A stretch of 64,000 nt of DNA from positions 30,267-94,266 of IMG/VR virus record IMGVR_UViG_3300021420_000021; one strand, written 5' to 3'. Made by a program: the position numbers and the translations under genes. Below, piece by piece: positions 106 through 24,951 of this stretch; positions within the stretch are counted from its first letter, which is position 1; every line of letters begins with the position of its first letter. The notes beneath the pieces are model-generated. The model saw only the letters and a program-made list of their open reading frames with translations. It made no database searches and was not told where the DNA came from. The stretch comes from a virus.

Positions 106-498
106 GTTGGACAAGCTAAGATGGACGAACTCGTCTCGGTCGATTTGACCGAAGTTATCGAGTTGCCGTCTAGCGGAGTGCAATTCTTTCAGACTAACCT
201 AGTCACTCAAAGTAACAATTACAAGTCTGTTGCTGGACTTGTAGGTCTTCGGACTTACATTTTTGGCAGAGACGGCGTATTTGCTATCAATCTAGGTGCA
301 AAAGGCGACACTGGCTATGGTGATGGCGAGTGGCGGAATATAGAATGCAATATTATGCAGAACGTTGCACCGACCGTCGCGGACCCCGAAGGCCTCATAC
401 CGGGATGGACTTCTTACAGAGTTCATTTCACCACGAGCCTCGGACCCGATACTACGATTCGGCAGAGACAAATTGATGCCGCTTCAGCCATAAGCTAA
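103..498 (+). CDS. probable major capsid protein, C-terminal exon
   Basis: No SD before ATG 121, and the frame is open from ~94 after the intron-like sequence. The C-terminus (RTYIFGRDGVFAINL...ADPEGLIPGWTSYRVHF) resembles N4-gp56-like capsid ends, and the ORF precedes decoration-type genes. Confidence 0.55.
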   Translation, partial: PVGQAKMDELVSVDLTEVIELPSSGVQFFQTNLVTQSNNYKSVAGLVGLRTYIFGRDGVFAINLGAKGDTGYGDGEWRNIECNIMQNVAPTVADPEGLIPGWTSYRVHFTTSLGPDTTIRQRQIDAASAIS

Positions 499-573: not shown

Positions 574-627
574 GGGGTAGGGTGCCGCAATCACCTTACC
601 CTGATTCGATAGCTCTATTGCGGAGAG
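574..627 (+). promoter_or_regulatory. kissing-hairpin / pseudoknot element overlapping the SD (copy 1)
   Basis: Stem 574-584/592-602; loop CCGCAAT is perfectly complementary to ATTGCGG (617-623), itself the loop of CTCT/AGAG, overlapping SD GGAGAG. Confidence 0.7.
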
Positions 628-635
628 AAAATAAC

Positions 636-1220
636 ATGTTTGAAAAAGGCAATACTTTTAGTCAAGGCCGAAAAATTGGTTCGCACAGTGAACAAGAAAT
701 TCAAGCTTTAAAAGAACGCAATGCCGCCCGAAAGGGTCAACCTATCACATCTGAGAAAATGTTAGCCGCTTCGCGAGCGGGGTGCAAAGCAATGAACGCT
801 GTTAGGCACTTAAAAGCAGGCCATATTTTAGAAAATGTTGATTCTGTCGCCCTTACAGGTGATTGTCACATTTGTGGTCAAGTGCCGATTAAGGTAATGA
901 AGCATAGAGCGAATGGCGCTTTACGCGATCAATATTTATGTTGGGTTGGAACTCGTTGCAGAGAGACAGACGGAGCACCTGCCAAAGTCGCGTATAAGAA
1001 TCAAGCATTAGAGATGTGGAACAATCAACATGGCAATTGTGCTTTGTGTTACAAATACATGGTTCGCGCAGGAAACACCAACGAAGGTGCAACGTTAGAT
1101 CATTGTCACACGACCGGATTTATACGCGGCTTTATTCATCAAGGCTGCAATAAAGGTTTGGGTCACTTTTTAGACGACCCTGAAGTTTTAAAAATGGCTG
1201 CTGAGTATTTACTTAGATAG
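636..1220 (+). CDS. endonuclease VII-like (His-Me) free-standing homing endonuclease
   Basis: CALC...LDHCHTTGFIRGFIHQGCNKGLGHFLDDPEVLKMAAEYL; SD GGAGAG before ATG 636. Confidence 0.85.
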   Translation: MFEKGNTFSQGRKIGSHSEQEIQALKERNAARKGQPITSEKMLAASRAGCKAMNAVRHLKAGHILENVDSVALTGDCHICGQVPIKVMKHRANGALRDQYLCWVGTRCRETDGAPAKVAYKNQALEMWNNQHGNCALCYKYMVRAGNTNEGATLDHCHTTGFIRGFIHQGCNKGLGHFLDDPEVLKMAAEYLLR

Positions 1221-1240: not shown

Positions 1241-2464
1241 ATGCCTATCCCCGCACAAACAACGGGTCTTGGAACCGCCGTCGCAGTCACGTTGGCGGGA
1301 ACTGGAGTCATACAGGAAAAGACACCTGTTGCTGGAACTCAAGGAATTTCGCACTACAATGTAACTCTGTCTTTGTCCGGGACCGGATTTCCGAGCACTG
1401 TCGCGGTCAGTGCTTCGACCATTGACGTTGCTGGAAACGTCGTTAGTAATGGCGGCGCTTCAGGATCGACGCAATTGGGCGCAGCCGCCGCAGCTTATGC
1501 TATTCTTGCCGCTGCTGGAATTACTAATACTGGCGCGACTGTCATTTCTGGCGGAAATATCGGTTCGTATCCGACTGCAACTGAAACCGGATTTACCGGG
1601 GCAAATTTTGTTCCTCCGGCGACGACTGATAACGCTGATGCACAAGCAGGACTCGCCGCCGCTTTGGTAACATATAACGCGCTATCGGCTTTGACTTTTA
1701 CGTCTTTGTCCGCGTCTTCGGCCAATTTAAGCACTCTTGGTAACGGAAGTACAGCTTCGACTTATACCGCAGGTAATTATTCTGCTGGCACAAGTATGGA
1801 CATTCCGACGAGTATTACTCTTGACGCGCAAGGTAATCCCGGCGCGGTATTTATATTTAAAGCCGGATCGACACTGACTCTCGAATCTAACGCGTCTGTT
1901 CTTCTTGTCAACGGCGCTCAAGCCGCGAACGTTTATTGGCTGGTCGGTAGTTCATTTACTTCGATCTTTGGAACTGTGTCCGTCATGAACGGAAATATTC
2001 TTGCCAATACAAGTATTACTCTTGGCGGTGGCGTCCTGAATGGCCGAGCGCTCGCCGGAATTGTGACTTCATCTGGCGCAGTTACAATTGCGACTGCCGA
2101 AGCAATTACAGTTCCCGGATTTTCGCAAAGCACAGCTTCAGGAATGAACGCAGTTAGTTATAATGCATGGCCGCGTTTGGTTGGCGGCGTTACACAGACT
2201 CGCGATGGTGTGACTCGTAATGCGCAAGATGTCACTGTTTCTTATCCGGCTCCGACTTCAGGTCCGGGCGGCGTTGCTGATGTGTCAGATGTCAATAATC
2301 CATTCCTTGTTACCGCGTATCGTGTCGGTCAAGCGTGGGTCGAATTCTTTTCTCCAACTTTCGGAAATTCCGAACCATTGGCGACAGATATTGAGTCGAA
2401 TTTGACCGAAGGTTTTCCGACCGATAAGATACAGGCCCAACTTTTAGTAAACGTCGTGAAGTAG
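1241..2464 (+). CDS. virion decoration-type protein with inserted DUF3494 ice-binding-like domain
   Basis: nt ~1472-2116 encode YAILAAAGITNTGATVISGGNIG...ITLDAQGNPGAVFIF...LLVNGAQAANVYWLVGSS...GNILANTSITLGGGVLNGRALA; the flanks are paralogous to the next two ORFs. Confidence 0.85.
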   Translation: MPIPAQTTGLGTAVAVTLAGTGVIQEKTPVAGTQGISHYNVTLSLSGTGFPSTVAVSASTIDVAGNVVSNGGASGSTQLGAAAAAYAILAAAGITNTGATVISGGNIGSYPTATETGFTGANFVPPATTDNADAQAGLAAALVTYNALSALTFTSLSASSANLSTLGNGSTASTYTAGNYSAGTSMDIPTSITLDAQGNPGAVFIFKAGSTLTLESNASVLLVNGAQAANVYWLVGSSFTSIFGTVSVMNGNILANTSITLGGGVLNGRALAGIVTSSGAVTIATAEAITVPGFSQSTASGMNAVSYNAWPRLVGGVTQTRDGVTRNAQDVTVSYPAPTSGPGGVADVSDVNNPFLVTAYRVGQAWVEFFSPTFGNSEPLATDIESNLTEGFPTDKIQAQLLVNVVK

Positions 2465-2483: not shown

Positions 2484-3041
2484 ATGTCTAATCCAGTTCC
2501 TCCCCATAATCCTACTGACGGATTGTCGTCTGCGTGTTTTGTGCAGCTATCAGGCACAGGCGTTATTGTCGATCCGAAGCAGACAAGACCGCCGTCTGCT
2601 AATTACCCAAATGCAGGACATTATGAAGTTACTTTGAGTGTTTCTGGCGCAAATGGTTTAGCGTCTTCTGTCGTTATAACACCATCACTTGTTGATGTGT
2701 CTAATACAGCGTATGCTTCGACTGCTGCGTCTTGGGTTTATCGGTCGTATAACGATCCTCAAGTAACCGAAGCAAGTCTTCCAACAGGACCGGGAAATCC
2801 GACTAATCTTGCGCCGAAGCCGACGCAGACTGCGAAACTTGCGTCTGTTAGCGCATCTGGAGCATCAACAGTAACCGTCACTGCGCTGTCTCCGGGCAAA
2901 GCAATTGTATCCGCAATTTACCCCACCTTCGATAACGCAGAAGGAAATGTTACAGTTGGCAATCTTGGCGGACCCTTGGCCGGAACTACAGTGCCGAAAG
3001 ATTATATTTTTTCATTTCTCGATGTAAAAATATTTCCGTAA
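2484..3041 (+). CDS. Ig-like virion decoration-type protein (paralog of 1241 without the insert)
   Basis: Shared motifs T.GL...V.L.GTG, HY.VTLS.SG, DV, SYN, VTA...G.A.V. Confidence 0.6.
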   Translation: MSNPVPPHNPTDGLSSACFVQLSGTGVIVDPKQTRPPSANYPNAGHYEVTLSVSGANGLASSVVITPSLVDVSNTAYASTAASWVYRSYNDPQVTEASLPTGPGNPTNLAPKPTQTAKLASVSASGASTVTVTALSPGKAIVSAIYPTFDNAEGNVTVGNLGGPLAGTTVPKDYIFSFLDVKIFP

Positions 3042-3059: not shown

Positions 3060-3647
3060 ATGCCGCCTCTTTTTCCAAGTTCGCAGAACAGCTTAAATTA
3101 TACAACGGGCGTAGGAATTCCGGCCCGAGTTGCCCTTAGTGGGACCGCAGCCGGAGGTAATAGTGTGACACAGCAACAGTCCGCCACGATTGACGGAACT
3201 TCGTATGTTGTTCTTCAAATGCGTGGTCCTGAATACTATCTTCTGATGACTTTGCCGTCTGATACGTGTCAATTGAGTGCCGGGATTGTAGATGTCGCTG
3301 GCAATGCGAGCACGGTTGATGCGAGTAATACGTTTACTTATACATCGTGGAACGCGAGTTCGGTCGTATTATCGATGTCGAATACTGGAAGTGCATCAGG
3401 ATCGGAGTTCGTATCTTTTTCTGCCGCAAATATGGGTACAGGCTGGATGCCTTCGAATCTGGCATGGGAAAGTAAAGTTGTAACTATCTCTTCGTCTGGT
3501 TTGATTACTGCGAACGCAAAAGGCCATGCGGTAGTGGAGTGTCGCTACCCCTTAAGTAAAGCATCGAACAATCCCGTTACGAATGGTTTAAATACGACAG
3601 ACAACCCACAATTTATTGCGGCATTGCTTGTAATTCGAGTCAATTAA
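3060..3647 (+). CDS. Ig-like (Big_2-like) virion protein, third paralog
   Basis: TTGVG...VALSGT, DVAGN, VVTISSSGLITANAKGHAVV. Confidence 0.55.
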   Translation: MPPLFPSSQNSLNYTTGVGIPARVALSGTAAGGNSVTQQQSATIDGTSYVVLQMRGPEYYLLMTLPSDTCQLSAGIVDVAGNASTVDASNTFTYTSWNASSVVLSMSNTGSASGSEFVSFSAANMGTGWMPSNLAWESKVVTISSSGLITANAKGHAVVECRYPLSKASNNPVTNGLNTTDNPQFIAALLVIRVN

Positions 3648-7773: not shown

Positions 7774-7975
7774 AATCAATAATTTACAGACAATTTCACT
7801 ATATTGTGTACAAAGATGTTGATCATGAGCATGAGAAACCCGGCACGCATCGTGGCATTCTTTGCGCATGGTGTAACACAGCACTCGGCAGATTAGAGCC
7901 GAATATGCAGAAAGTCTTAGAATATCTGGCCGAGTATGGAAAATACTACGAGCCTCCGCTAAAGGATTTAAATGC
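7774..7975 (+). pseudogene. truncated endonuclease VII remnant
   Basis: Only VDHEHE...HRGILCAWCNTALGRLE...LEYL remains; no N-terminal CxxC and no plausible start. Confidence 0.65.
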
Positions 7976-8940
7976 CCGCTTTGAGCACAATTACGCTAGA
8001 AATGACGATGGATTGGGCGAAACGCCTTAGTTTTAACCGCAACTTTGGAATCGGTAATTCTCTTGAACCCGCGCTTACGTCTGCAAACATGGTCGCTCAG
8101 ACGATTCTTTCGCCTCCATTTGACTTCTGGTGGAATTCTCAAGAGATAAGCTTTACGTGTTCGACAGCGCCTCCGGTCGCGAACATTACAAACGTCGCGA
8201 TTACAAGTAAAATTGTAACTCTGTTGATGATAAATACGTTTGTTCAGAATGATCAAGTTTTAATCGCGTCTTTAGTGACTGCGGCGTTTCTTAATGGCGC
8301 AGTATTGACTGTTTTGACGGCATCGCCAACACAGATTACGGCTTATTTTAATCATGCCGACTATGTTTCTGCCGCCGATACAGGGACTGCAACAAAAAGC
8401 ACGACTCAAGATTATACAGTCAATATCCCTAATTTTTCTCACATCGAACATGCGTCTGTATACGATATATTTACGAACAGTCAGACGACCGGAACTGTCG
8501 GCAAGAAGTGGTGGGAACTAGAAGTAAAGAATAATCTGTCTTTAGATTCTACTCTCGGTCGGCCTCAGTTTATCAATCCGCAATTTGAAGATGTTAATAG
8601 TAACGTTACATTTCGAATGATGCCTGCGCCGAGTCAGAATTACCCTGTCGCACTTCACGTTCAGTTAGCGCCGCCGTTGTTTACGAGTTTGAATCAAACA
8701 TGGTCGCCGCTTCCTGACTTTATGCAACACATTTATTCATGGGGTTTTTTAAGTCTGATGTGGGCCTTTGCGGATGATCCGCGTGTTGGTTTCGCGAATC
8801 AAAAATTTACATCTAGTCTGCTCGCCCGCGCAGATGGGCTATCTCAAGAAGAACGCGACACGTTTCTCAACAATTGGAATATGTTGACTGGAACACAGCA
8901 ACAACAACGAGCACAAGGAACGCAGATGCGAGGTATGTAG
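7972..8940 (+). CDS. second adaptor / tail tubular A-like paralog
   Basis: STITL..., PAL..AN, PFDFWWN, QDY and PD motifs shared with 6688. Confidence 0.55.
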   Translation: MPALSTITLEMTMDWAKRLSFNRNFGIGNSLEPALTSANMVAQTILSPPFDFWWNSQEISFTCSTAPPVANITNVAITSKIVTLLMINTFVQNDQVLIASLVTAAFLNGAVLTVLTASPTQITAYFNHADYVSAADTGTATKSTTQDYTVNIPNFSHIEHASVYDIFTNSQTTGTVGKKWWELEVKNNLSLDSTLGRPQFINPQFEDVNSNVTFRMMPAPSQNYPVALHVQLAPPLFTSLNQTWSPLPDFMQHIYSWGFLSLMWAFADDPRVGFANQKFTSSLLARADGLSQEERDTFLNNWNMLTGTQQQQRAQGTQMRGM

Positions 8941-10456: not shown

Positions 10457-13400
10457 ATGTCGAACGCGTTGCAGGCCGCTGGCGCTCAGCCGGACAAACA
10501 AACTAAATTCACAAATTTATATACAGGCCGTTTCTTTTCAGGAATCTGGACAAATCGTTCTCCATTACGTGATGCTGCTTCGACTCGAATAGAAGAAAAG
10601 TTTTACGGGCCACGTGGCGATGCAATGATCGCGGGATCGAACGTCGAAATTACGAATAGGCTGACTTTAGGTCGAAGACCCGGAAATCCGGTTTACGACA
10701 ATGTTAATACTTTTACTAATGTTCTGAGTTTTGACGATTTTCGTATCAGCAAGGGCTTATCTGACATTTTCGGAACGGTGACCGAACAAGTCGATACAAT
10801 GATCGACACAAGCGCTGCTCTATTTGCCGAGAATAGTGCTTTTGTTCTTCAAGGCGGCGTCAATCCAACGACAGTATTTACGAAGTCTCCCGGCGCGGGA
10901 CAAAGTTATGGAATTCAAGTCGGAAACGAATGGTATTTTGGCAACGGCGCGGATAATAAAAAGTGGCTTCAGTCTTTATTTGTTCGATCAAGTGCAAGCA
11001 ATAATGCGACTTTAAATCTTAATTCGTATCCGTTCATGGATACATTTTTGATTAGTAATCCGACGACGAATCCGCAGATTCAGCAATTAATTGGTGCCGC
11101 TGTTCAATCGGGCGCGTCAGGTTCAGTCAATAATATTAACGTCACGAACGTCGTTTTGACGAATGAAGTGTTGACACTTACGACTTCCGCCGCTCCGTTT
11201 ACGACACAGCCTATTGGCACGCAGTTTATGCTATGGGGATTTACAAATCCTGCTACGACATTTTTGAACGGTTCGACTATTACTTTGACTGTCGCTTGGT
11301 CGGGAACGACTATTACTGCGACTTGGACCGGAACGCACGCAAATATGTCGCAGGCGGATACAGCGGTCATTCAAATTGAAAAAGGTGGTACGAACTCTGT
11401 TACAAATACACTTGTACTCGGTCCTACGGTTCCGACATGGGGAACAGTTGCGCCAAGTGCCGCTAACGATTTCATGGGCAGTGTAACGATTGACGGACAG
11501 GCGATTTGGGTCAATCGTGGAATAACTGTCGAAAATTGGGGATTAGCAGCACCGACTGAAGATTTGACTTCAGGTCCGGGCGGAATTTCGTTAACTGGTG
11601 CGGCTTCAGGATTTTCTCCAAATACGTTTTTTGCTCCAGCAAGTGTATTCATAGACCCTAATGGTAATTTATGGGAAGTGACAACCGGAGGCAAATCTGG
11701 CGCAACTGAACCTGCTTGGCCCGCTTCGCCTACGTTTAGTGTAAAGCATGACATTTTTGCAGTTTCAGTCGCAGCTAACGTCGCGACTATATATTGTACG
11801 ACTTTGCCGAGTCCGGGTCAAAGTGTGCAACTTTTCGGGTTACAACAAGCGAACGGAAATGGCGGCGCGCCGAATCTCAACGGCGTGACTTTGACCGTCG
11901 CGACAACCGGAGCAAATTTCTTTACTGCGCCTTTTACGTTCTCAGGGACTTATCCGGCGACTGGTGATGGCGCGGATCAAGGATATGCTATATTTTATGG
12001 TACGACTCAAGCAGACGGAAGTGTAGTCTGGACAAGTCTGCAAAGCGCCGCATCGATGGTTTGGGCTGCGCATACGCATTATCATCAAGATGATTTTTTA
12101 GTCGCGCCTACAGGGTCGAGTACATCGTTATTTCGGTTAAGCAAGAATACGCAACCGTTTATTCAGTCTGATGGAGCGCTATTAAGTACTCTTTATCCAA
12201 CGTATAATTCAAGCCCGATAACCGGATCGTTTAACGCGATTGCAAATCCGATAACTATTAATTCTTGGGCGGATAATTCTAATCCCGCCCGAGGGTTTAA
12301 CGGCGCGTTTAGTCAATCGTATTTATCGGTTCCGACATCCGGATCAGCCGCTGTTTCTACGCCTGTTCCGGGGTCTTTATACGCCGTAACAAATTCGACA
12401 GCAGGCGGCGGACCCGAACAAAGCGGGCCGAACGTCTACTTCTTTGCCGTCAACGGCGCGGGCGAAATAGGTGCGTCAACAGATAGCGGACAAGCTCAAA
12501 ATTGGGAAGCTTCGTTTATTTGTAAAATTTACATTCCTGCTCCCGGAACTTATACGTTTTCTCTTTTACACGATGATGGTGCTTTTTTTTCATTCGATAA
12601 TATTTCTACTTCTGCGTTTTTGACTATTGGTTCGCAGACGAATGTTCCGCCAACGTTTTCCGGATCAGGCGGAAAAACTGCTATTCAAGGTTATACCGGA
12701 GTTGTCGGAAATAATAACTCCGGCGTTACTACAGATTCAGCGACTTGGAGATTTCCAACAGCAGGCGATTACACATTAGAAATTAATTGGAAAGCTTGGC
12801 AAAACGCAGAAGAGATGATTTTTACTTGCCAGAGTTTTAATCTTGCAAGCAGTCCCGACGAATCCGGAACAAATCAACCTGCTTGGCCCGCTTTTACGAC
12901 TACTGGAGCGACCGCGAGTACGACGACTGGAATTACGTTTGGTACAGGCGACGTTATCAAAGAAGCAGGCGGTCAGTATACGTGGAGCAATTTAGGTCCG
13001 ACGAGCGCATATAATGTCTGGTTTGCAAATACGACTTATACCGTGTCAGGAACGCCGATTGTTGATACGAATGGAAATGAACAGCTTCCAATTCAACCCG
13101 GCGTAACTGGATCGACTGCGCCTGTATTCAACGGGACATTGAACGGGATTACGACGATATCCGGATCAACGTTACAGTTTATCAACGCCGGAGGTGTGCC
13201 AATTCAGCCGAACACTCCGGGAAAGATTACGGCTACGAGCGCCCAAGGTTGGATTTATGGGATCGCACTTGTCAATACGTTAGATAATACTGTTTCGAAT
13301 ATTGGGCCGATAGGCCCGCCGAACAGCGCAGGCGGTGTAGGAACAGGGCCACTTATTAGCGGACAAGTTACGTTCTCTCCGGGTGCGGGATTGCCAACTG

Positions 13401-15355
13401 ATCTGACTCAAATCGATCCACAAGCTGATTACGTAGCTATTTTTAGAACGACTGACGGTTTTTCGACTTTGTTACTTATACCGAGTAACGGAAATACCGA
13501 TTATACTGTTCCGTTGACTCAGTATTTACAAAGTGGTTATGTTGATACGACGCCCGATACAGGCTTAGATACGCTCATTCAAGCTGCCGCAGCCGGAGAA
13601 AACACCCCTCCGCTACCGGGCGCGGTTAATCTGACGTATCATTTAAACCGTATTTGGTACTCAATCGGCAATACTGTATATTATACAACCGGGCCGTTAG
13701 CGCCAGTAGGAAACGGTATTAATGGAACTTCGCCATTGAACTTTGACGGTGTGACTTCTTTAATCACTCGATTAGTTCCATCTTCGATAGGCATGTTAGT
13801 GTTCACCGTTTCGGATATTTATATAATCCCGAATCAGGGCAGAACGATTCTTCCGAGTCTTCCGTATGTTCCGGGCGTAGGATTGTCGAGCTATAATGCT
13901 CTTGATATATCAGGGCCGTTAGTCGGCTTCTTTTCGACTGATCATCAGTTTATTAACTTCAATCCTAGCGCGGGCGTCAACATCGTTTCGATGCCAATTG
14001 GCGACCAGTTCCGTAAGAACACCGGACAACCGGGAACATCTTGGAACCCGAAAAATGTCTACGTCGCTTGGTATGTCAACGGCGAAGACATGGGATGGTT
14101 TGTTGCGGACGGCGTTAATGGGTGGTATAGGCTGATTAACAATCCCGCACCCGATTTCGGGCAAAGCTGGAGTCCGTTTGCCACAATTGTAAACGGCGTA
14201 AAAGCTATTAAATCTGTTGAAACCGCTCCGGGAGTACATAATTTACTTCTAGGCCCGTCTTCTTCAGCACCTATTAATCCTTCTCAGTTAGGATCAGCCG
14301 GGAATTACGCACTACTCGCGTATTCTGGAATTACAAATACAGGTTCGTCTGTCATCTTCGGGAATGTTGGTACTGTGACTGCAACGGTTACTCCGGGTGG
14401 ATGGACTCTTGTTCCGCCATCAGTCATAGATAACGCAGACGCAGCAACAGCCGAAGTCGCCGCTCTTGCCGCGTATAATTTTTACGCAGCATTGACGCCA
14501 ACGAAATCCGGGCTGTCTAATCTTTCGACAGGCGGAAACGGAAGTACAGCTTCGACCTATACAGCCGGAGTTTACGCCGGAGCGTCGAGTTTGTCGATGC
14601 CGACAGGAATTACTCTTGATGGCCAAGGTAATACTAATTCTATATTCGTATTCCAAGCCGGATCGACTGTAAATCTTGCGTCCGGACAATCGGTCAATCT
14701 TATTAACGGCGCACAAGCAAGCAACGTATTCTGGGTCGTTGGTACTTCGCTAACAACTGTTGCAACAAGTACAATGGTCGGGACAATTCTTGCTCAAATA
14801 TCTGTCACATTAGGCGGCGGAATTTTGAACGGGCGTGCTCTTGCTGGAATCGGCGGATCAAGCGGGGCGGTAACTATTTCTGCCGCAACTGCGATTACTA
14901 TTTCAGCCGGATTGCCGACAGGTTCCGGATTTATTCGATTTAGAAATCTTGATGCTTCTTCCGATGGCGGAACAGGATTGACGAACGGATTGACTTATCC
15001 TGCATACGGAGTATTCGGATCATACGTACTCGCGCAACCCGGTCAAGTCGCGCAAGTTGCATTCGTTACGACTGACTCAGTAAATACGGGAAGTCCGTTA
15101 ATTTTAGGGCTTTTGATAGACGAAGCTTTGCCTTATTTTACCGGAAGTTTTGAGATGTTGAAGAACTGGACGACCGATCCTCCGGGATTACCCGCCAGTA
15201 AATCAATTCTCGGACAACGCTTTTATTTGTCTGAGCTTCCCAATTCCGCAGCGGCGTTACGCCATATGCAAATCATGTGCCAATGGCCTAGCGAAAGTGC
15301 GCTTAATGAATTGCAGAGCTTTACGGTATTTGGCGATTATGTTCAGGAGCAGTAG
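10457..15355 (+). CDS. large tail nozzle / tubular B-like protein with PA14-like, CBM-like and DUF3494 inserts
   Basis: N-terminal NVEITNRLTLGRRPG typical of nozzle proteins; PA14-like IYIPAPGTYTFSLLHDDG (~12500-12830); DUF3494 at ~14285-14910. Confidence 0.7.
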   Translation: MSNALQAAGAQPDKQTKFTNLYTGRFFSGIWTNRSPLRDAASTRIEEKFYGPRGDAMIAGSNVEITNRLTLGRRPGNPVYDNVNTFTNVLSFDDFRISKGLSDIFGTVTEQVDTMIDTSAALFAENSAFVLQGGVNPTTVFTKSPGAGQSYGIQVGNEWYFGNGADNKKWLQSLFVRSSASNNATLNLNSYPFMDTFLISNPTTNPQIQQLIGAAVQSGASGSVNNINVTNVVLTNEVLTLTTSAAPFTTQPIGTQFMLWGFTNPATTFLNGSTITLTVAWSGTTITATWTGTHANMSQADTAVIQIEKGGTNSVTNTLVLGPTVPTWGTVAPSAANDFMGSVTIDGQAIWVNRGITVENWGLAAPTEDLTSGPGGISLTGAASGFSPNTFFAPASVFIDPNGNLWEVTTGGKSGATEPAWPASPTFSVKHDIFAVSVAANVATIYCTTLPSPGQSVQLFGLQQANGNGGAPNLNGVTLTVATTGANFFTAPFTFSGTYPATGDGADQGYAIFYGTTQADGSVVWTSLQSAASMVWAAHTHYHQDDFLVAPTGSSTSLFRLSKNTQPFIQSDGALLSTLYPTYNSSPITGSFNAIANPITINSWADNSNPARGFNGAFSQSYLSVPTSGSAAVSTPVPGSLYAVTNSTAGGGPEQSGPNVYFFAVNGAGEIGASTDSGQAQNWEASFICKIYIPAPGTYTFSLLHDDGAFFSFDNISTSAFLTIGSQTNVPPTFSGSGGKTAIQGYTGVVGNNNSGVTTDSATWRFPTAGDYTLEINWKAWQNAEEMIFTCQSFNLASSPDESGTNQPAWPAFTTTGATASTTTGITFGTGDVIKEAGGQYTWSNLGPTSAYNVWFANTTYTVSGTPIVDTNGNEQLPIQPGVTGSTAPVFNGTLNGITTISGSTLQFINAGGVPIQPNTPGKITATSAQGWIYGIALVNTLDNTVSNIGPIGPPNSAGGVGTGPLISGQVTFSPGAGLPTDLTQIDPQADYVAIFRTTDGFSTLLLIPSNGNTDYTVPLTQYLQSGYVDTTPDTGLDTLIQAAAAGENTPPLPGAVNLTYHLNRIWYSIGNTVYYTTGPLAPVGNGINGTSPLNFDGVTSLITRLVPSSIGMLVFTVSDIYIIPNQGRTILPSLPYVPGVGLSSYNALDISGPLVGFFSTDHQFINFNPSAGVNIVSMPIGDQFRKNTGQPGTSWNPKNVYVAWYVNGEDMGWFVADGVNGWYRLINNPAPDFGQSWSPFATIVNGVKAIKSVETAPGVHNLLLGPSSSAPINPSQLGSAGNYALLAYSGITNTGSSVIFGNVGTVTATVTPGGWTLVPPSVIDNADAATAEVAALAAYNFYAALTPTKSGLSNLSTGGNGSTASTYTAGVYAGASSLSMPTGITLDGQGNTNSIFVFQAGSTVNLASGQSVNLINGAQASNVFWVVGTSLTTVATSTMVGTILAQISVTLGGGILNGRALAGIGGSSGAVTISAATAITISAGLPTGSGFIRFRNLDASSDGGTGLTNGLTYPAYGVFGSYVLAQPGQVAQVAFVTTDSVNTGSPLILGLLIDEALPYFTGSFEMLKNWTTDPPGLPASKSILGQRFYLSELPNSAAALRHMQIMCQWPSESALNELQSFTVFGDYVQEQ

Positions 15356-16911: not shown

Positions 16912-17535
16912 ATGATAGAAGAAATTAAATATTGTGAGTGTGGCTGTGGGAAACCTGCGCCTATCGCAGACCGTAACGTTAAACGTAATGGATGGGTAAA
17001 AGGGCAAGCTAAACGTTTTATTCGAGGTCATGGATCGATTGCGCTATTTAAGAGTCCGCGATATGTAGAAAAAATGCAGGCTGTACTGACTGGCGCACCT
17101 AGCAAGTTACGCGGACGAAAGCAGCCGCTTGAACATCGTGCAAAGAAAATTAGATCGCTTACCGGTAAAGAGCCGATAATGAGTCCGTTTATTTCTGCTT
17201 TTATATCATTACAAAAAGGCCGTTGGATTGCAGGCGGCAAAAAACTTCATGCTCGCGCTGTGTGGGAACATTTTAACGGCCCTGTGCCAGCCGGGTTTCA
17301 TGTGCATCATAAAAATGGCGACCCATCAAAAATAGAAAGCGACAATATTGATAATCTTATGTTACTTACTGCGGAATGGAATTTACGGTTTATGCCGCAA
17401 CTAGCAGCAGGTTTTGGTATTCATGAGTCTGATGTGACAAAAGCCTATATTGAAGTCGAACATATTCCTTATAAGGATAGGTTTCCAGCAGTTTGTCGAA
17501 TATTATTAGATCAGCAGGTTGATTATGGTAAATAG
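16912..17535 (+). CDS. HNH homing endonuclease
   Basis: CECGCG...RFIRGH; HARAVWEHFNGPVPAGFHVHHKNGD...DNIDNL. Confidence 0.8.
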   Translation: MIEEIKYCECGCGKPAPIADRNVKRNGWVKGQAKRFIRGHGSIALFKSPRYVEKMQAVLTGAPSKLRGRKQPLEHRAKKIRSLTGKEPIMSPFISAFISLQKGRWIAGGKKLHARAVWEHFNGPVPAGFHVHHKNGDPSKIESDNIDNLMLLTAEWNLRFMPQLAAGFGIHESDVTKAYIEVEHIPYKDRFPAVCRILLDQQVDYGK

Positions 17536-20802: not shown

Positions 20803-23800
20803 GTGGGCGATCCTAATGATGTGACAATTCCTCAGCCGCTGGTATCGGGCGCGACTGATCAACCGAATGCGCCACAATCAGGCCAGCCGCAAGCAGCCCC
20901 GCCTGTTCCTGAAGGCTTTTCTGATACACCTGTGTCTTCTGCCCCGGCTGCCCCGGCTGTTCCGGCAGGCTTTTCTGACACGCCACAAACTCAAGATAAT
21001 CCTAATTCTGTTGATCATCACGGTCTTTTATCTCGTGCTTGGGATTGGTTAAATAAGCCAATTGCTGATAATGTCATGCCGAAAGATATGAAAACGGCAG
21101 ATATTATGAAAGCGCTCGCTTATGAGAAATTGTTTGGAAAACCTTATATTCCGGGCGTTAATGATTTCGATACCGCCGAAGAACAACATTTGGGTGAAAG
21201 TCCGACTCGTCATGCTTTGAAGACTTTTATTGCAGGCGCGGCCAAAGATACCGCAAATATGGCGGCGGGATTTACATCTCCACTTCAAGCCGGATTAATG
21301 GCGACAGGTGCAGGCGAAGCCGGATTACTTGGCAAAACCGCAGCTACTATTGCGAAACCTGTTGGCGCGTTAGCCGGAACTGCATTTGCAGGCGCAGGCG
21401 CAGCACAATCTTATCAAGCTGTAAAAGATGCAGTCACAAATGGACTGACTCCAGAAAACACCCAACAAGGGTTGATGGGCGCGTCAATGATTGCCGGAGG
21501 CACAGCCGGAGCAATTAAAGGCGTAAGTCCTGCGATTAGTAAAATTGCCGGATCATTACGTCCAACGACGGAGACTGTCGGTTCGACCGAAGTCCCTGTA
21601 CGTGGTACAGGACTGTTAGCCAGACTCGCACAAAAGACTGTACCTGATACAATGTCAAGATTTGCGAAAGAGCAAACCGGGCCAGCCGTCGCTAAAGGAA
21701 TTGGAACTGTTGCAAAAGAAGCAGCCGGAACCGAAGGAGTTGTTTCTCCAGATCAGCATGATCGTTTGGGTATTCGCGGAGTAGCAGATGAAGTAGCAGA
21801 CAGATCGAAAGCGGTATTCCAGAAATTAGATGAAGTTTCTGGTAATATGTTGTCAGAAGCGCAAACGATGGCCGATGACGCATCGGGAGATTATTCAAGT
21901 GCAGGACGAAAAGAATATCGTCAAGCAATGGATTTGCAAGATGCAATTTTTGATAACTATAAGAATCATTCTGAACTTCAAGGAATGGACTTAGATCAAG
22001 CGAAAGCTGATTGGCGGCAACAAGTTGCTTTACGTGAGATAAGTAAAAAGCTGACAGGCGGGACCGAAGCTTCGGAATCGGGGGCGCAAGATTATCAATT
22101 TAAGCAAGGAAAGCAATTAGCCGAATCAGTCGATTCGCTCGTAAAGAATGATAAAGATGTTTTACAGAGAGCCGGATTTAACGAAGATCATATTGATCAG
22201 TTACAAAAATTCGGGCGAATAATCCGTGAACAAGGAAATACACCTAAGTTCTCTGGTTATATGGGCGGGATTGCAAAAGCTCTTGCCGGATTGACTGGAG
22301 CGCATTTTCAAGGTGCTGGCGGCGCACTTGGCGGTGTTGTAGCAGAAACAGCGGCAGAACACGCGGGCGGCTGGTTAGCAGATCGAATGCTTGGTAAAGT
22401 TTTGACAACGCCAGCGGCATTGCCGATTTTGACTGAAGGATTAAGCAAGAATATCGACCCCGCGATAGTTACGAATCAATTAAAATCTGCGATTGCGACG
22501 GCTGATCCGGGATGGGCTGCAAAGACGGGCGAAATATTGTCTAATTTGTGGCATGATGAATCAGGTAATTTAACAATTCCCGGAACTGGACAGACTGTCG
22601 GAACTGCCGAAGGCGCAAAAGCCGATACAGCCTTTTTTCAACAAGCAAAAGATGAATTGGGCGAAGATGCGTCTTTTTCCGATGTCGCAAAACGTGCTCA
22701 AGAAATGAAGACGCAAGCGAATCTTTCTGGACCCGGCGCAGAAGGCGCAGGATCAGTTGAAGCGATTAATCGGGCGAATACAGAGAAAGCGCAAGGAGTT
22801 AAACGAGTCGTCGTCGATACAAGAACCGGACAAGAACGACCGTTAATTGGTGTTGACGCAGTTGATTATCAAGCAAAGCCGTATGAATCAGTTGAATTTC
22901 GAGGCGGCGACAGAGATGGCGAAATAATCGATCAGGGCCGATCTGCGCGTGCATACGAACGAAAGTATTCGGGCGAAGAACGACGTGGAATTGAACGCAA
23001 GACGATGAATGCGGCTGAATTAGAAGATGCTATGAAGAATCGTAAGCCGATTCACACGCCGTTTAACGATACCGAAGGCGCGATGGCAACGATTGCACGC
23101 GATCAGAACATGCCGAAGCATCCGGGCGAAAGAACTGTTGCCGAAGAAGCGCAAGCAGCGGCGCACCATGAAAACGGCGGATCGACATTTAGTCCGGAAG
23201 GTCAGAACCTTAATGGAGTCGATAAATATTCTGTTGGCTCTTATCCAGAGCGAACAGAGCAATCGGACATTCTTACGCCTAATAGTCTGAAGGCTTTTAA
23301 AGATAGAAATGCTGATCTGTTGAATCAGCCCGATCACGCGGTTGGAACTTGGAAAGATACAGATACCGGAAAACATGTTCTTGATGTTGCAAAACTTTAC
23401 GACGACAGAGATGCCGCGATTGCTGCCGGACAAGCCGCTAACCAAAAGAGTATTTATCATCTCGGAACTGGCGAACTTGTCGATACAGGCGGAACTGGAG
23501 AAACCCCCACTGGACGTGTCGGACAAAGAAAGCCGACCGGGAAAGCCGAAGCGGGCCACGATCCAAGTCTTAACCTCGGCATGGATGTCATAAATAAAGC
23601 CGGGGCCGATAAACCTGAATATCTTCAGAAACTGGCCGACAAAGTTGCTCAATATCCGACGATGAAATATGCTCCTGAAGGCGCAGACGAATCGTTTGAT
23701 CCTGAAGCAATGGCGACGACTGATCCGCACAAGATTTTGAATAATTTCGTAAAGCAAGCCGCCGATAATATTGAATGGTTGCATAATCAAGTTCCGCCCG

Positions 23801-24951
23801 ATATCAGAGAAATGTCGAAGAACTGGTATGATTCTGCGAACAAGATGACGAAAGACCAAGCTGAAAAGTATGGAATTTCACATCCGCAAGCCGCAGCCGT
23901 GACAGCCGTTCTTTCGCCGCAGAATCCTTGGGATAATAACATCTCATTGGCGAACCGAGTTCTTGATGTTTGGAAGAACCGACAGAATTTCAAATGGTCG
24001 CCCGAGATGTCTAAGAAAGCGGCCAGTTTACTCGGCCAATCAAAGAATATCGATGACGCTTTAGAACTTATACATGGTAAAACGTTTGCACAATTGAAAG
24101 ACGCAGACCCGGAAACCGAAGCCGCGATGAAAGGACTTTGGACTCGGATTTACGACGAAGCGCACAACCCAAGAACGTTTGAGCGATGGGCACCAGATGG
24201 TACGACTCGGGGAATCGCCCGTAACGCGGGCGGAAGTCCGGCGAATGCATCTTGGTTCTCGATTCTTCCTATCTCCAAGGCAATCAGTGTCTTAGAAGAT
24301 GGATCAATGGATAATATTCACGAACAATTGGGCGATGCTCATAAAGTTCGTAATTTTTATAATAATATCATTGACCCGAACTCAAAAATGGGCGATACTA
24401 CTGTTGATACACATGCGGTAGGAGTTGCGCACTTAAGCCCTTATAGTTTAGACGCACAAGAAGTGAAAGATAACTTCGGCGGATCGAGTCATAAGAATGC
24501 GAAATTCGGGCTAAAAGGCACTTATCCGCTTTATGCTGAAGCGTATAAACAAGCGGCTGACAGATTGGGAATTTTGCCCCGACAGTTACAGTCGATCACT
24601 TGGGAAGGAATTCGGTCGTTATTTAAAGACAAGAGTCCTGAACTGCAAGGCGCGGTTCGCGATATCTGGAAGGATCATCAAGATGGCAATATCACAATCG
24701 ATGACGCAAGAAAACGGATTATCGAAGCCGCAGGCGGATTCAAGCCGACCGACTGGCAATCCGATATTGGCGCTAATGAAGAAGCTGAACAGCCCGCAAA
24801 CGCGACAGGCGTACCTCGAACTGGCGTATCTCAAGAAGAACCCCAAACTCAGTCCAGAGGAAGAAGCCGAACTTCCGGAGCAGTTTCAACTTCCGGAAAT
24901 CGACAAAGCCAAATCGAAAACGTCTACAAAGCAGTAACGGGCGGAAAATAA
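20803..24951 (+). CDS. large internal virion / ejection protein 3 with C-terminal enzymatic-looking domain
   Basis: 1382 aa; Gly/Ala membrane-like segments; C-terminal WY...AAVTAVLSPQNPW...HKVRNFYNNI...TVDTHA...LQSITW. Confidence 0.65.
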   Translation: MGDPNDVTIPQPLVSGATDQPNAPQSGQPQAAPPVPEGFSDTPVSSAPAAPAVPAGFSDTPQTQDNPNSVDHHGLLSRAWDWLNKPIADNVMPKDMKTADIMKALAYEKLFGKPYIPGVNDFDTAEEQHLGESPTRHALKTFIAGAAKDTANMAAGFTSPLQAGLMATGAGEAGLLGKTAATIAKPVGALAGTAFAGAGAAQSYQAVKDAVTNGLTPENTQQGLMGASMIAGGTAGAIKGVSPAISKIAGSLRPTTETVGSTEVPVRGTGLLARLAQKTVPDTMSRFAKEQTGPAVAKGIGTVAKEAAGTEGVVSPDQHDRLGIRGVADEVADRSKAVFQKLDEVSGNMLSEAQTMADDASGDYSSAGRKEYRQAMDLQDAIFDNYKNHSELQGMDLDQAKADWRQQVALREISKKLTGGTEASESGAQDYQFKQGKQLAESVDSLVKNDKDVLQRAGFNEDHIDQLQKFGRIIREQGNTPKFSGYMGGIAKALAGLTGAHFQGAGGALGGVVAETAAEHAGGWLADRMLGKVLTTPAALPILTEGLSKNIDPAIVTNQLKSAIATADPGWAAKTGEILSNLWHDESGNLTIPGTGQTVGTAEGAKADTAFFQQAKDELGEDASFSDVAKRAQEMKTQANLSGPGAEGAGSVEAINRANTEKAQGVKRVVVDTRTGQERPLIGVDAVDYQAKPYESVEFRGGDRDGEIIDQGRSARAYERKYSGEERRGIERKTMNAAELEDAMKNRKPIHTPFNDTEGAMATIARDQNMPKHPGERTVAEEAQAAAHHENGGSTFSPEGQNLNGVDKYSVGSYPERTEQSDILTPNSLKAFKDRNADLLNQPDHAVGTWKDTDTGKHVLDVAKLYDDRDAAIAAGQAANQKSIYHLGTGELVDTGGTGETPTGRVGQRKPTGKAEAGHDPSLNLGMDVINKAGADKPEYLQKLADKVAQYPTMKYAPEGADESFDPEAMATTDPHKILNNFVKQAADNIEWLHNQVPPDIREMSKNWYDSANKMTKDQAEKYGISHPQAAAVTAVLSPQNPWDNNISLANRVLDVWKNRQNFKWSPEMSKKAASLLGQSKNIDDALELIHGKTFAQLKDADPETEAAMKGLWTRIYDEAHNPRTFERWAPDGTTRGIARNAGGSPANASWFSILPISKAISVLEDGSMDNIHEQLGDAHKVRNFYNNIIDPNSKMGDTTVDTHAVGVAHLSPYSLDAQEVKDNFGGSSHKNAKFGLKGTYPLYAEAYKQAADRLGILPRQLQSITWEGIRSLFKDKSPELQGAVRDIWKDHQDGNITIDDARKRIIEAAGGFKPTDWQSDIGANEEAEQPANATGVPRTGVSQEEPQTQSRGRSRTSGAVSTSGNRQSQIENVYKAVTGGK
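24683..24937 (+). CDS. small overprinted ORF (+1 frame) inside the end of ejection protein 3
   Basis: SD GGAAGGA 8 nt before ATG 24683; protein-like NPILALMKKLNSPQTRQAYLELAY...LSPEEEAELPEQFQ while the host frame is low-complexity. Confidence 0.5.
   Translation: MAISQSMTQENGLSKPQADSSRPTGNPILALMKKLNSPQTRQAYLELAYLKKNPKLSPEEEAELPEQFQLPEIDKAKSKTSTKQ

What the first reader, a model, noticed from the sequence alone, without database searches (positions are those of the whole stretch)
14285..14910. Second DUF3494 domain grafted into the tail nozzle-like protein, apparently by intragenomic duplication
Seen: a second DUF3494 domain interrupts the C-terminal region of the 1632-aa protein, between LLLGPSS and GSGFIRFRNLD. 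Both copies share the unusual NLST.GNGSTASTYTAG segment, with matching DNA (AACGGAAGTACAGCTTCGAC at ~1742 and ~14537), and both end GRALAG...SSGAVTI. Inference: one domain was copied onto both head and tail, suggesting selection for whole-virion ice or surface binding.
Basis: partly seen in the sequence, partly recalled or inferred. Interest (0 to 1): 0.85.

Follow-up and report, generated by a model that had tools for sequence, protein, structure and literature searches.

The report
Swappable ice-binding-fold cassette on phage virion
A soil phage related to an Arctic Acidobacteria phage carries a complete ice-binding-type (DUF3494) domain in two different virion proteins, but the two copies are old cousins from a phage-specific pool of swappable cassettes, not a fresh duplicate pair.

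Summary
Window 14285-14908 encodes a full Pfam Ice_binding/DUF3494 domain. It is cleanly inserted into the 1632-aa protein (10457-15355) between LLLGPSSS and GSGFIRFRNLD. More than 100 homologues lack the insert, including gp19 of the cultured Tunturiibacter phage Tunturi_3. A second copy sits in the 407-aa protein at 1241-2464.

Recent intragenomic duplication is not supported. The copies are 58% (aa) and 59% (nt) identical, and synonymous sites are near saturation. Each copy has closer relatives in other phages. An AU test rejects them as one clade (p = 2e-8).

Both copies belong to a phage-specific DUF3494 clade. The nearest hits in cellular genomes are at most 47% identical. This clade is shuffled among at least five virion-protein scaffolds. 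In the large protein the insert behaves as an exchangeable cassette: flanks can be 85% identical while the inserts are 56%.

In all 8 related records with the large-protein insert, a second DUF3494 gene is also present. None of 17 complete relatives has any. Both domains are under purifying selection (dN/dS about 0.1).

The large protein has a beta-propeller that best matches podophage tail hubs such as P22 gp10. The small protein is an Ig-like frame, and its place on the head is unproven. Ice binding is plausible but untested. The scan also noted DUF3494 in virion-fibre-like proteins of other genomes.

The parts
10457..15355 (+). Large virion protein L (1632 aa), tail hub/nozzle-like and carrying the insert
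   Evidence: ORF and translation. It is 41% identical to Tunturi_3 gp19. More than 344 homologues exist, most without PF11999.
13280..14230 (+). Beta-propeller region of L (aa 942-1258)
   Evidence: AF2 model pLDDT is 80-90 here. VIA-align: P22 gp10 Z 12.6, rmsd 3.5, 200 residues aligned; GP4 Z 12.1; Sf6 Z 11.8; crAss001 muzzle Z 11.4-11.8. Generic WD40 propellers score Z 11-11.9. Foldseek/BFVD returns 'Tail tube B' and 'P22 Gp10'.
14180..14284 (+). Conserved segment upstream of the insert (ends LLLGPSSS plus a short linker)
   Evidence: pLDDT is 26-40 in the monomer model. It is conserved in insert-free homologues.
14285..14908 (+). DUF3494 / IBP-1-fold cassette in L (aa 1277-1484): the finding itself
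   Evidence: PF11999 E 1.4e-31. PDB sequence hits include IBPv 5uyt at 3.4e-26 and EfcIBP. Model pLDDT 80-93; VIA Z 30.6, rmsd 1.5 A over 197 residues to 7bwy. dN/dS is 0.10 against G002.
14909..15001 (+). Conserved segment downstream of the insert (GLPTGSGFIRFRNLDAS...)
   Evidence: pLDDT is 25-30. It is contiguous with the upstream segment in insert-free homologues.
15002..15352 (+). C-terminal beta-rich domain of L
   Evidence: Model strands 636-750. Conserved in all homologues. No Pfam hit.
1241..2464 (+). Small virion protein S (407 aa): an Ig-like frame with a DUF3494 insert, encoded just after the capsid gene
   Evidence: Model pLDDT 76, pTM 0.71. The frame (residues about 10-70 plus 300-407) matches Big_2/Ig-like domains at Z 8-8.7.
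1475..2119 (+). DUF3494 cassette in S (aa 79-293)
   Evidence: PF11999 E 3.6e-35. VIA Z 29.4 to 7bwx. dN/dS is 0.085 against G002.
2484..3041 (+). Insert-free paralogue of S (185 aa)
   Evidence: Its N-terminal 80 aa are 40% identical to S, E 4e-12. Ig-like leads come from the ESM Atlas.
3060..3647 (+). Second insert-free paralogue of S (195 aa)
   Evidence: BLASTP against S gives E 5e-6, and against the first paralogue E 5e-6.
1742..1761 (+). 20-nt tract identical to 14537-14556
   Evidence: P = 0.0034 given the amino-acid alignment and codon usage. The exact 20-mer is found only in this genome among 189 loci.
14537..14556 (+). 20-nt tract identical to 1742-1761: a possible micro gene-conversion tract

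Best explanation
SHOWN. The stretch encodes a complete, selectively maintained DUF3494 (IBP-1 beta-solenoid) domain. It sits as a cassette in a conserved inter-domain segment, just after the beta-propeller of a large tail hub/nozzle-like protein. The phage is a Tunturi-3-like soil podovirus, probably infecting Acidobacteriota. The cassette belongs to a phage-specific DUF3494 subfamily. Recombination moves this subfamily between related phages and between at least five virion-protein scaffolds. These include the Ig-like 407-aa protein next to the capsid gene of this same genome. The two copies here are cousins within that pool (58% identical), not a recent duplicate pair. A single 20-nt identical tract hints at a short gene conversion between them. 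INFERRED. The domains project from the virion as adhesion modules. There would be about six around the tail hub if the protein is hexameric like P22 gp10, plus an unknown number on the Ig-like protein. The most likely ligand is ice, meaning ice adhesion or local inhibition of recrystallisation in freeze-thaw soils (my estimate about 40%). Next most likely is host exopolysaccharide or cell surface (about 25%), then another ordered surface such as minerals (part of the remainder). The strict co-occurrence of the two display sites suggests selection for multivalent display.
For: Domain identity and fold. VIA Z is 26-31, rmsd 1.5-1.9 A, with 31-38% identity to experimentally studied IBPs. Clean insert against insert-free homologues. 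Phage-specific clade: 73 single-domain sequences separate from cellular multi-domain proteins with 100/99 support. The best match in 185,579 prokaryote species genomes is 42-47%. Not a sister pair: and the AU test at p 1.9e-8. Synonymous sites are near saturation. Cassette exchange: G003 vs P0133 has flanks 85/85% and insert 56%; G000 vs G003 has flanks 60/67% and insert 76%; P0148 vs P0146 has flanks 88/90% and insert 71%. Insert-bearing forms are scattered in at least 6 places on the backbone tree. Other scaffolds and sites. Co-occurrence: all 8 records with the L insert also carry a second PF11999 gene, and 0 of 17 complete relatives have any. Purifying selection: dN/dS 0.085-0.10. Tail-hub fold.
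Against: There is no experimental or habitat evidence for ice binding; the runs holding this DNA are labelled only 'soil metagenome'. DUF3494 proteins also occur in non-freezing habitats and may bind other substrates (PMC11645318). The only cultured relative comes from Arctic tundra and lacks the domain, as do 17 of 17 complete relatives, so the domain is dispensable. The tail-hub assignment rests on a propeller fold that generic WD40 proteins match almost as well, and on gene order. Exposure of the insert is inferred from low-confidence linkers in a monomer model with mean pLDDT 68. The co-occurrence counts are not corrected for shared ancestry.
Confidence: 0.55

Rival explanations
1. Host-recognition or exopolysaccharide-binding module. 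The DUF3494 solenoid is used as a receptor-binding or glycan-binding domain at the tail hub and on accessory proteins. It is swapped between phages to change host range or adsorption, and has nothing to do with ice.
For: Cassette exchange with conserved flanks is the typical behaviour of host-range modules. There is a 120-nt recombinant patch inside the domain between two 91%-identical phages. The same large protein carries a sub-threshold PA14-like carbohydrate-binding motif (E 6.7e-4). The domain also occurs in fibre-like scaffolds. DUF3494 occurs in ice-free habitats.
Against: The domain is 31-38% identical to proteins with measured ice-binding activity and superposes on them at 1.5-1.9 A. 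dN/dS of 0.085-0.10 shows no diversifying selection between close relatives. The same domain type sits on a protein encoded next to the capsid gene, which is an odd place for a receptor binder.
Confidence: 0.25
2. One reading: a recent duplication within this genome copied the head-protein domain into the nozzle-like protein, or the reverse.
For: There is a 20-nt identical tract with P 0.0034. The two copies share indels relative to the G003/G006 S-type domains. Third-position identity is higher within the genome (45%) than in comparisons with G003 (29-30%). In one relative (G009) S and L are 76% identical.
Against: Identity is 58% at the amino-acid level and 59% at the nucleotide level, against 56% expected from the amino acids alone. 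Each copy has closer relatives elsewhere. The copies lie in separate starred clades, and the AU test gives p 1.9e-8. The L-type insert is shared with G003, whose S domain belongs to another clade.
Confidence: 0.06
3. One ancient insertion into the large protein, followed by vertical descent and many clean losses, with no cassette exchange.
For: The insertion site is the same in all C-terminal insert forms, including the very divergent G010 domain. Clean loss by recombination with insert-free alleles is easy.
Against: Insert and flank identities are strongly incongruent. Backbone sisters G003 and P0133 carry inserts of different starred clades. Inserts of the large protein are sisters of small-protein domains in two lineages. 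Two other insertion sites exist, in P0180 and P0280.
Confidence: 0.05
4. An auxiliary metabolic gene reading: the phage makes a soluble ice-binding protein to cryoprotect its host, as proposed for PF11999 genes on Arctic marine viral contigs.
For: Viral PF11999 genes have been read this way (PMC11515562).
Against: Both domains are internal parts of proteins in the structural gene block. They have no separate ORF and no N-terminal signal sequence position. Insert-free orthologues of both frames exist.
Confidence: 0.02

Closest known systems
Microbial DUF3494 / IBP-1 ice-binding proteins (IBPv 5UYT, EfcIBP 6EIO, AnpIBP 7BWX/7BWY, FfIBP 4NU2, ColAFP 3WP9, SfIBP_1 6BG8)
   Same: Same Pfam family and same fold: Z 26-31, rmsd 1.5-2.3 A, 27-38% identity. 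SfIBP_1 and many bacterial members also combine the solenoid with Ig-like (Big) domains, as the 407-aa protein does.
   Different: Here the domain is not a secreted or cell-anchored protein. It is an internal insert in phage structural proteins. It belongs to a separate phage-specific clade (100/99 support; at most 47% identity to cellular genomes). Ice binding has not been tested.
Podophage tail hub / nozzle proteins (P22 gp10, Sf6 and GP4 homologues, T7 gp12 'tail tubular protein B', crAss001 muzzle)
   Same: A beta-propeller core gives the best non-IBP structural matches (Z 11.4-12.6). The gene lies between small tail genes and large internal-protein-like genes. The relative Tunturi_3 has a short-tailed (podovirus) morphology.
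   Different: No sequence-level membership: Pfam, PHROGs and a PDB profile search found nothing. The protein is three times longer, with extra repeat regions and a PA14-like region. No known hub protein carries a DUF3494 insert.
Accessory display domains on virions (Ig-like Hoc-type decoration, Big_2 domains on phi29 and other capsid and tail proteins)
   Same: A non-essential, surface-binding-type domain is added to structural proteins. It is present in some relatives and absent in others. The frame of the small protein is itself Ig-like.
   Different: The displayed module is an ice-binding-fold solenoid, exchanged as a cassette and gained at two sites together.
Viral PF11999 genes reported as cryoprotective AMGs (Arctic surface-microlayer vOTUs, PMC11515562) and DUF3494 proteins of Hyperionvirus
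   Same: The same Pfam family on viral genomes.
   Different: Those were read as stand-alone host-benefit genes. Here the domain is built into virion proteins. tblastn of this domain finds nothing in 50,697 GenBank phage records.

Membership tests
Pfam PF11999 Ice_binding (DUF3494) | HMM score above the curated gathering threshold | tested here: met
   110.3 bits (L) and 122 bits (S) against a cut-off of 28.7.
Pfam PF11999 Ice_binding (DUF3494) | IBP-1 fold: a triangular right-handed beta-solenoid with a long alpha-helix alongside | tested here: met
   The AF2 models have pLDDT 80-95 over the domain, with a helix at model 449-465 (L) and 134-149 (S). VIA Z is 30.6 (L) and 29.4 (S) to solved IBPs.
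Functional ice-binding proteins | Measured ice affinity, thermal hysteresis or recrystallisation inhibition | not testable with these tools
   The ice-binding face has no sequence motif that defines it. DUF3494 members exist in ice-free habitats (PMC11645318).
Functional ice-binding proteins | Occurrence tied to freezing habitats | tested here: inconclusive
   The runs holding the DNA are labelled only 'soil metagenome'. The cultured relative is from Arctic tundra but lacks the domain. IMG sample ids were not found in the paper's tables.
Podophage tail hub/nozzle (P22 gp10 / T7 gp12 class) | Beta-propeller core structurally matching solved hub proteins | tested here: inconclusive
   P22 gp10 scores Z 12.6 and ranks first among non-IBP matches, but unrelated WD40 propellers reach Z 11-11.9.
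Podophage tail hub/nozzle (P22 gp10 / T7 gp12 class) | Sequence-family membership | tested here: not met
   No Pfam or PHROG family other than PF11999 was found. A profile of 48 homologues finds no PDB chain at E <= 1.
Podophage tail hub/nozzle (P22 gp10 / T7 gp12 class) | Hexamer below the adaptor ring in the virion | not testable with these tools
   This needs cryo-EM or virion proteomics of a cultured member.
Capsid decoration protein (for the 407-aa protein) | Fold or sequence match to a known decoration protein, or a location on the capsid | tested here: inconclusive
   There is only a generic Big_2/Ig-like match at Z 8-8.7; such domains occur on capsids, tail tubes and connectors alike. 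The Tunturi_3 counterpart is auto-annotated 'tail fiber'.
Recent intragenomic duplicate pair | The two copies are each other's nearest relatives | tested here: not met
   The AU test gives p 1.9e-8.
Viral auxiliary metabolic gene | A stand-alone gene outside the structural proteins | tested here: not met
   Both domains are in-frame inserts in structural ORFs that have insert-free orthologues.

The most novel reading that the evidence does not exclude
A group of soil podophages makes the whole virion ice-adhesive, or ice-structuring, by installing a mobile phage-specific DUF3494 cassette at several virion sites at once. This would be the first structural use of ice-binding proteins by viruses, rather than host-benefit use. 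The joint gain of the tail-hub and Ig-like-protein copies would reflect selection for multivalent binding in freeze-thaw soils.
Probability: 0.3. Interest if true: 0.85.

Novelty: new variant of a known kind. Interest (0 to 1): 0.66.

Why it matters
Ice-binding proteins are known as secreted or cell-surface tools of cold-adapted microbes. On viral contigs they have been read only as host-helping genes. Here the same fold is built into the particle itself. It is exchanged like a tail-fibre cassette and is gained at two virion sites together. This gives a concrete, testable handle on how soil viruses persist and stay near their hosts through freezing. If the ligand is not ice, it shows what DUF3494 domains bind outside icy habitats, which is an open question for the family. 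It also provides natural with-insert and without-insert allele pairs for experiments. Finally, it suggests that the published 'head decoration' label of Tunturi_3 gp19 is probably wrong.

Tried and rejected
- PHROGs gave nothing for S, L or most neighbours.
- A PDB profile search with 48 L homologues gave nothing.
- tblastn of S, and of the L domain alone, against 50,697 GenBank phage records gave nothing.
- The ESM Atlas gave only unnamed viral clusters for L and sub-0.9 Ig-like leads for the paralogue.
- Habitat could not be established. Sequencing-run labels say only 'soil metagenome', and the IMG sample ids are not in the Tunturi paper's supplements.
- Rfam found no intron family between the two capsid-gene pieces.
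- The GC profile shows no compositional break at the insert.
- Independent capture of S and L from cellular hosts was considered and rejected, because both fall inside one phage-specific clade.
- No ice-binding-site motif test was attempted, because the family has no accepted sequence motif for that face.
Full report
**What is there.** The window is bases 30267-94266 of a 94,266-bp, 99%-complete IMG/VR virus record. The ORF at 10457-15355 (+) encodes 1632 aa, with a Pfam Ice_binding (PF11999, DUF3494) domain at aa 1287-1477 (E 1.4e-31). The ORF at 1241-2464 (+) encodes 407 aa, with the same family at aa 88-283 (E 3.6e-35). These are the only two copies in the genome. I call the small protein S and the large protein L. 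The two domains align at 56-58% identity.

**The phage.** The only relative among 50,697 GenBank phage records is Tunturiibacter phage Tunturi_3. It is 97.6 kb, was isolated from Finnish tundra soil, and infects Tunturiibacter psychrotolerans, an acidobacterium. It is a podovirus with a 77-nm head and a 21-nm tail (PMC11924767). The terminase, portal and major capsid genes lie just upstream of the window. The capsid protein is about 80% identical to that of Tunturi_3. An acidobacterial host for the window's phage is an inference from this kinship.

**The insert in L is real.** Tunturi_3 gp19 (1136 aa) is the orthologue of L and lacks the domain. Eight L orthologues were aligned. Four (G000-G003) carry about 215 extra residues between LLxGPxxx and xGxGxIxxRxLDAS. 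Three (G004, G005, Tunturi_3) run straight through. One is cut by its contig end. In the large protein database the family has more than 344 members. Most lack PF11999, and 19 of the best 120 carry it.

**What L is.** An AlphaFold2 model of aa 881-1632, built on 48 homologues, has mean pLDDT 68.
- The DUF3494 part has pLDDT 80-93. It superposes on solved ice-binding proteins at Z 26-31, rmsd 1.5-1.9 A and 27-38% identity.
- The region before it (aa 942-1258) is a beta-propeller.
- The best non-IBP matches of the propeller are podophage tail hubs: P22 gp10 Z 12.6, GP4 12.1, Sf6 11.8, the crAss001 muzzle 11.4-11.8, plus Pan3, Pa223, Pam1 and VP1.
- In BFVD the propeller matches 'Tail tube B' of cyanophage PP and three 'P22 Gp10' entries.
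- Generic WD40 propellers score nearly as high (Z 11-11.9), and no sequence-level family is found.

I therefore rate 'tail hub/nozzle-like' as likely (about 70%) but not as proven membership. The published automated label 'head decoration' for Tunturi_3 gp19 is probably wrong.

The insert sits in a conserved roughly 60-residue segment between the propeller and a C-terminal beta-rich domain. Both halves of that segment have pLDDT 25-40 in the monomer model. This fits a tethered, exposed domain, but it could also mean that the segment orders only in the assembled particle.

**What S is.** The S model has pLDDT 76 and pTM 0.71. It shows the DUF3494 solenoid (Z 27-29) inserted into one Ig-like/Big_2 domain, formed by residues about 10-70 and 300-407 (Z 8-8.7).
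- The next two ORFs (2484-3041 and 3060-3647) are insert-free paralogues. The N-terminal 80 aa of the first are 40% identical to S, E 4e-12.
- Relative G004 has an insert-free 207-aa orthologue at the same position.
- Ig-like domains of this kind occur on capsids, connectors and tail tubes.
- The Tunturi_3 counterpart is auto-labelled 'tail fiber'.

'Head' is therefore unproven for S.

**Are the two copies a duplicate pair? No.**
- S's domain is 70-78% identical to domains in many other proteins of 330-690 aa, several of them on contigs of about 95-110 kb.
- An exhaustive search of 1.84 billion representatives with the L domain finds relatives at 62-72% identity: P0086 72%, P0245 69%, P0249 and P0251 67%.
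- S and L are only 58% identical to each other.
- An IQ-TREE analysis of 85 domains puts all single-domain sequences in one clade (100/99), apart from cellular multi-domain proteins.
- Within that clade, S lies inside starred groups of 4, 10 and 16 sequences that exclude L. L groups with P0086 and the G003 insert.
- The AU test rejects S plus L as one clade (delta lnL 128.7, p 1.9e-8).
- At the DNA level the copies are 59.0% identical, against 56.1% expected from the amino-acid alignment and codon usage alone. Synonymous sites are thus almost saturated.
- The 20-nt run is still unusual (P = 0.0034). It is exact only in this genome. The next longest run is 13 nt. I read it as a possible short gene-conversion tract, not as a sign of recent duplication.

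**A phage-specific, shuffled cassette.** In one genome per species of 185,579 prokaryotes, the best matches are 42-47% identical. They are in Actinomycetota, Acidimicrobiia, Bryobacterales and Terriglobia, and none reaches 50%. The phage-type domain occurs in several places:
- In S-type proteins.
- In L at the C-terminal site.
- In L at two other sites: P0180 at aa 132-339, and P0280 upstream of the usual site.
- In about 685-aa homologues of window ORF 7972-8940.
- In homologues of the fibre-like ORF 32421-34718.
- In proteins that start with the domain.
- Twice in one 837-aa protein.

Insert and backbone evolve independently:
- G003 and P0133 have flanks 85% and 85% identical but inserts only 56% identical.
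- G000 and G003 have flanks 60% and 67% identical but inserts 76% identical.
- P0148 and P0146 have flanks 88% and 90% identical and inserts 71% identical.

Insert-bearing forms are scattered in at least six places on a backbone tree. Relative G010 carries a much more divergent, cellular-like DUF3494 at exactly the same site. S-type and L-type domains are starred sisters in two other lineages: G006_S with P0148/P0141 at 77-78%, and P0091 with P0126 at 76%. In G009 the genome's own S and L are 76% identical. Copying between the two scaffolds therefore does happen in this group; it is just not what links the two copies in this window. Between the 91%-identical genes of G000 and G001, a 120-nt patch inside the domain drops to 48-65% identity. 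This is a further sign of recombination.

**Selection and co-occurrence.**
- Between G000 and G002, dN/dS is 0.10 for the L insert (flanks 0.05-0.06). It is 0.085 for the S insert (frame about 0.145). Both inserts are maintained.
- All eight records with an L insert (G000-G003, G007-G010) also carry a second PF11999 gene of 343-420 aa. G008 carries three PF11999 genes in total.
- One record (G017) has S only.
- None of 17 complete relatives, nor G004, G005 or Tunturi_3, has any copy.
- The insert-bearing records fall into about five backbone lineages. The counts are not corrected for ancestry.

**Function.** All of this section is inference. The fold and 31-38% identity to proteins with measured ice binding make ice the single most likely ligand. 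Against this, DUF3494 proteins are also common in ice-free habitats and may bind other substrates (PMC11645318). The domain is dispensable in most relatives, including the Arctic isolate. I could obtain no habitat data. Cassette exchange and a sub-threshold PA14-like motif in L keep a host-surface or glycan-binding role open. I commit to 'virion-surface adhesion module displayed at two sites'. I estimate the ligand as ice at about 40%, and host surface or exopolysaccharide at about 25%. Another ordered surface such as minerals accounts for part of the remainder.

**Novelty.** Full-text searches found viral PF11999 genes treated only as cryoprotective auxiliary genes (PMC11515562). They found nothing on DUF3494 in phage structural proteins. 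BFVD holds DUF3494 proteins only from a giant virus among the top matches. Earlier notes of this scan report DUF3494 in fibre-like virion proteins of two other genomes; I did not check these.

Noticed in passing
L004:16819-18765 and window 121-498: The major capsid gene is split. Residues 1-212 are encoded at L004:16819-17478 (80% identical to Tunturi_3 MCP). Then comes an ORF matching HNH endonuclease PHROG 5046 (L004:17551-18351). The last roughly 125 residues are at window 121-498 (78% identical). This is most likely an intron with a homing endonuclease. Rfam finds no intron family there.
   Followed up: partly
L005:13829-14461 versus window 14285-14908: The large-protein genes of G000 and G001 are 91% identical in DNA. 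A patch of about 120 nt in the N-terminal part of the DUF3494 domain drops to 48-65% identity. This is a recombinant patch with no donor in my set; the best match is 71% at the amino-acid level.
   Followed up: partly
window 12539-12598 (L aa 695-714): The motif YTFSLLHDDGAFFSFD and its surroundings give a sub-threshold PA14 match (PF07691, E 6.7e-4, 19.9 bits against a cut-off of 24). This may be a carbohydrate-binding domain in the same large protein.
   Followed up: partly
proteins P0180, P0280; record G010 (L103, L185): The same large-protein family has the DUF3494 domain at two other positions: aa 132-339 in P0180, and upstream of the usual site in P0280. In G010 a much more divergent, cellular-like DUF3494 sits at exactly the usual site.
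   Followed up: partly
record G008 (L179-L181): One 39.7-kb viral contig carries three DUF3494-bearing genes, with open frames of 1641, 402 and 357 aa. The domains are 41-53% identical to each other.
   Followed up: no
window 582-1220 and 16912-17535: An endonuclease VII-like ORF and an HNH_3 ORF lie between structural genes. Relative G004 has a different small ORF between its capsid gene and its S orthologue. The structural block seems to be a target for homing-endonuclease genes.
   Followed up: no
L001:12001-15411 (Tunturi_3 gp19) and L001:1392-2330 (gp7): The GenBank/Phold labels are 'head decoration protein' for gp19 and 'tail fiber protein' for gp7. They do not fit the propeller/tail-hub-like fold of the gp19 orthologue, nor the Ig-like frame of the gp7 counterpart.
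   Followed up: partly
window 20803-24951: A 1382-aa protein with DUF7178 (E 2.5e-27) follows the tail genes. This is the position where T7-like phages encode large internal or ejection proteins. Its function was not examined.
   Followed up: no
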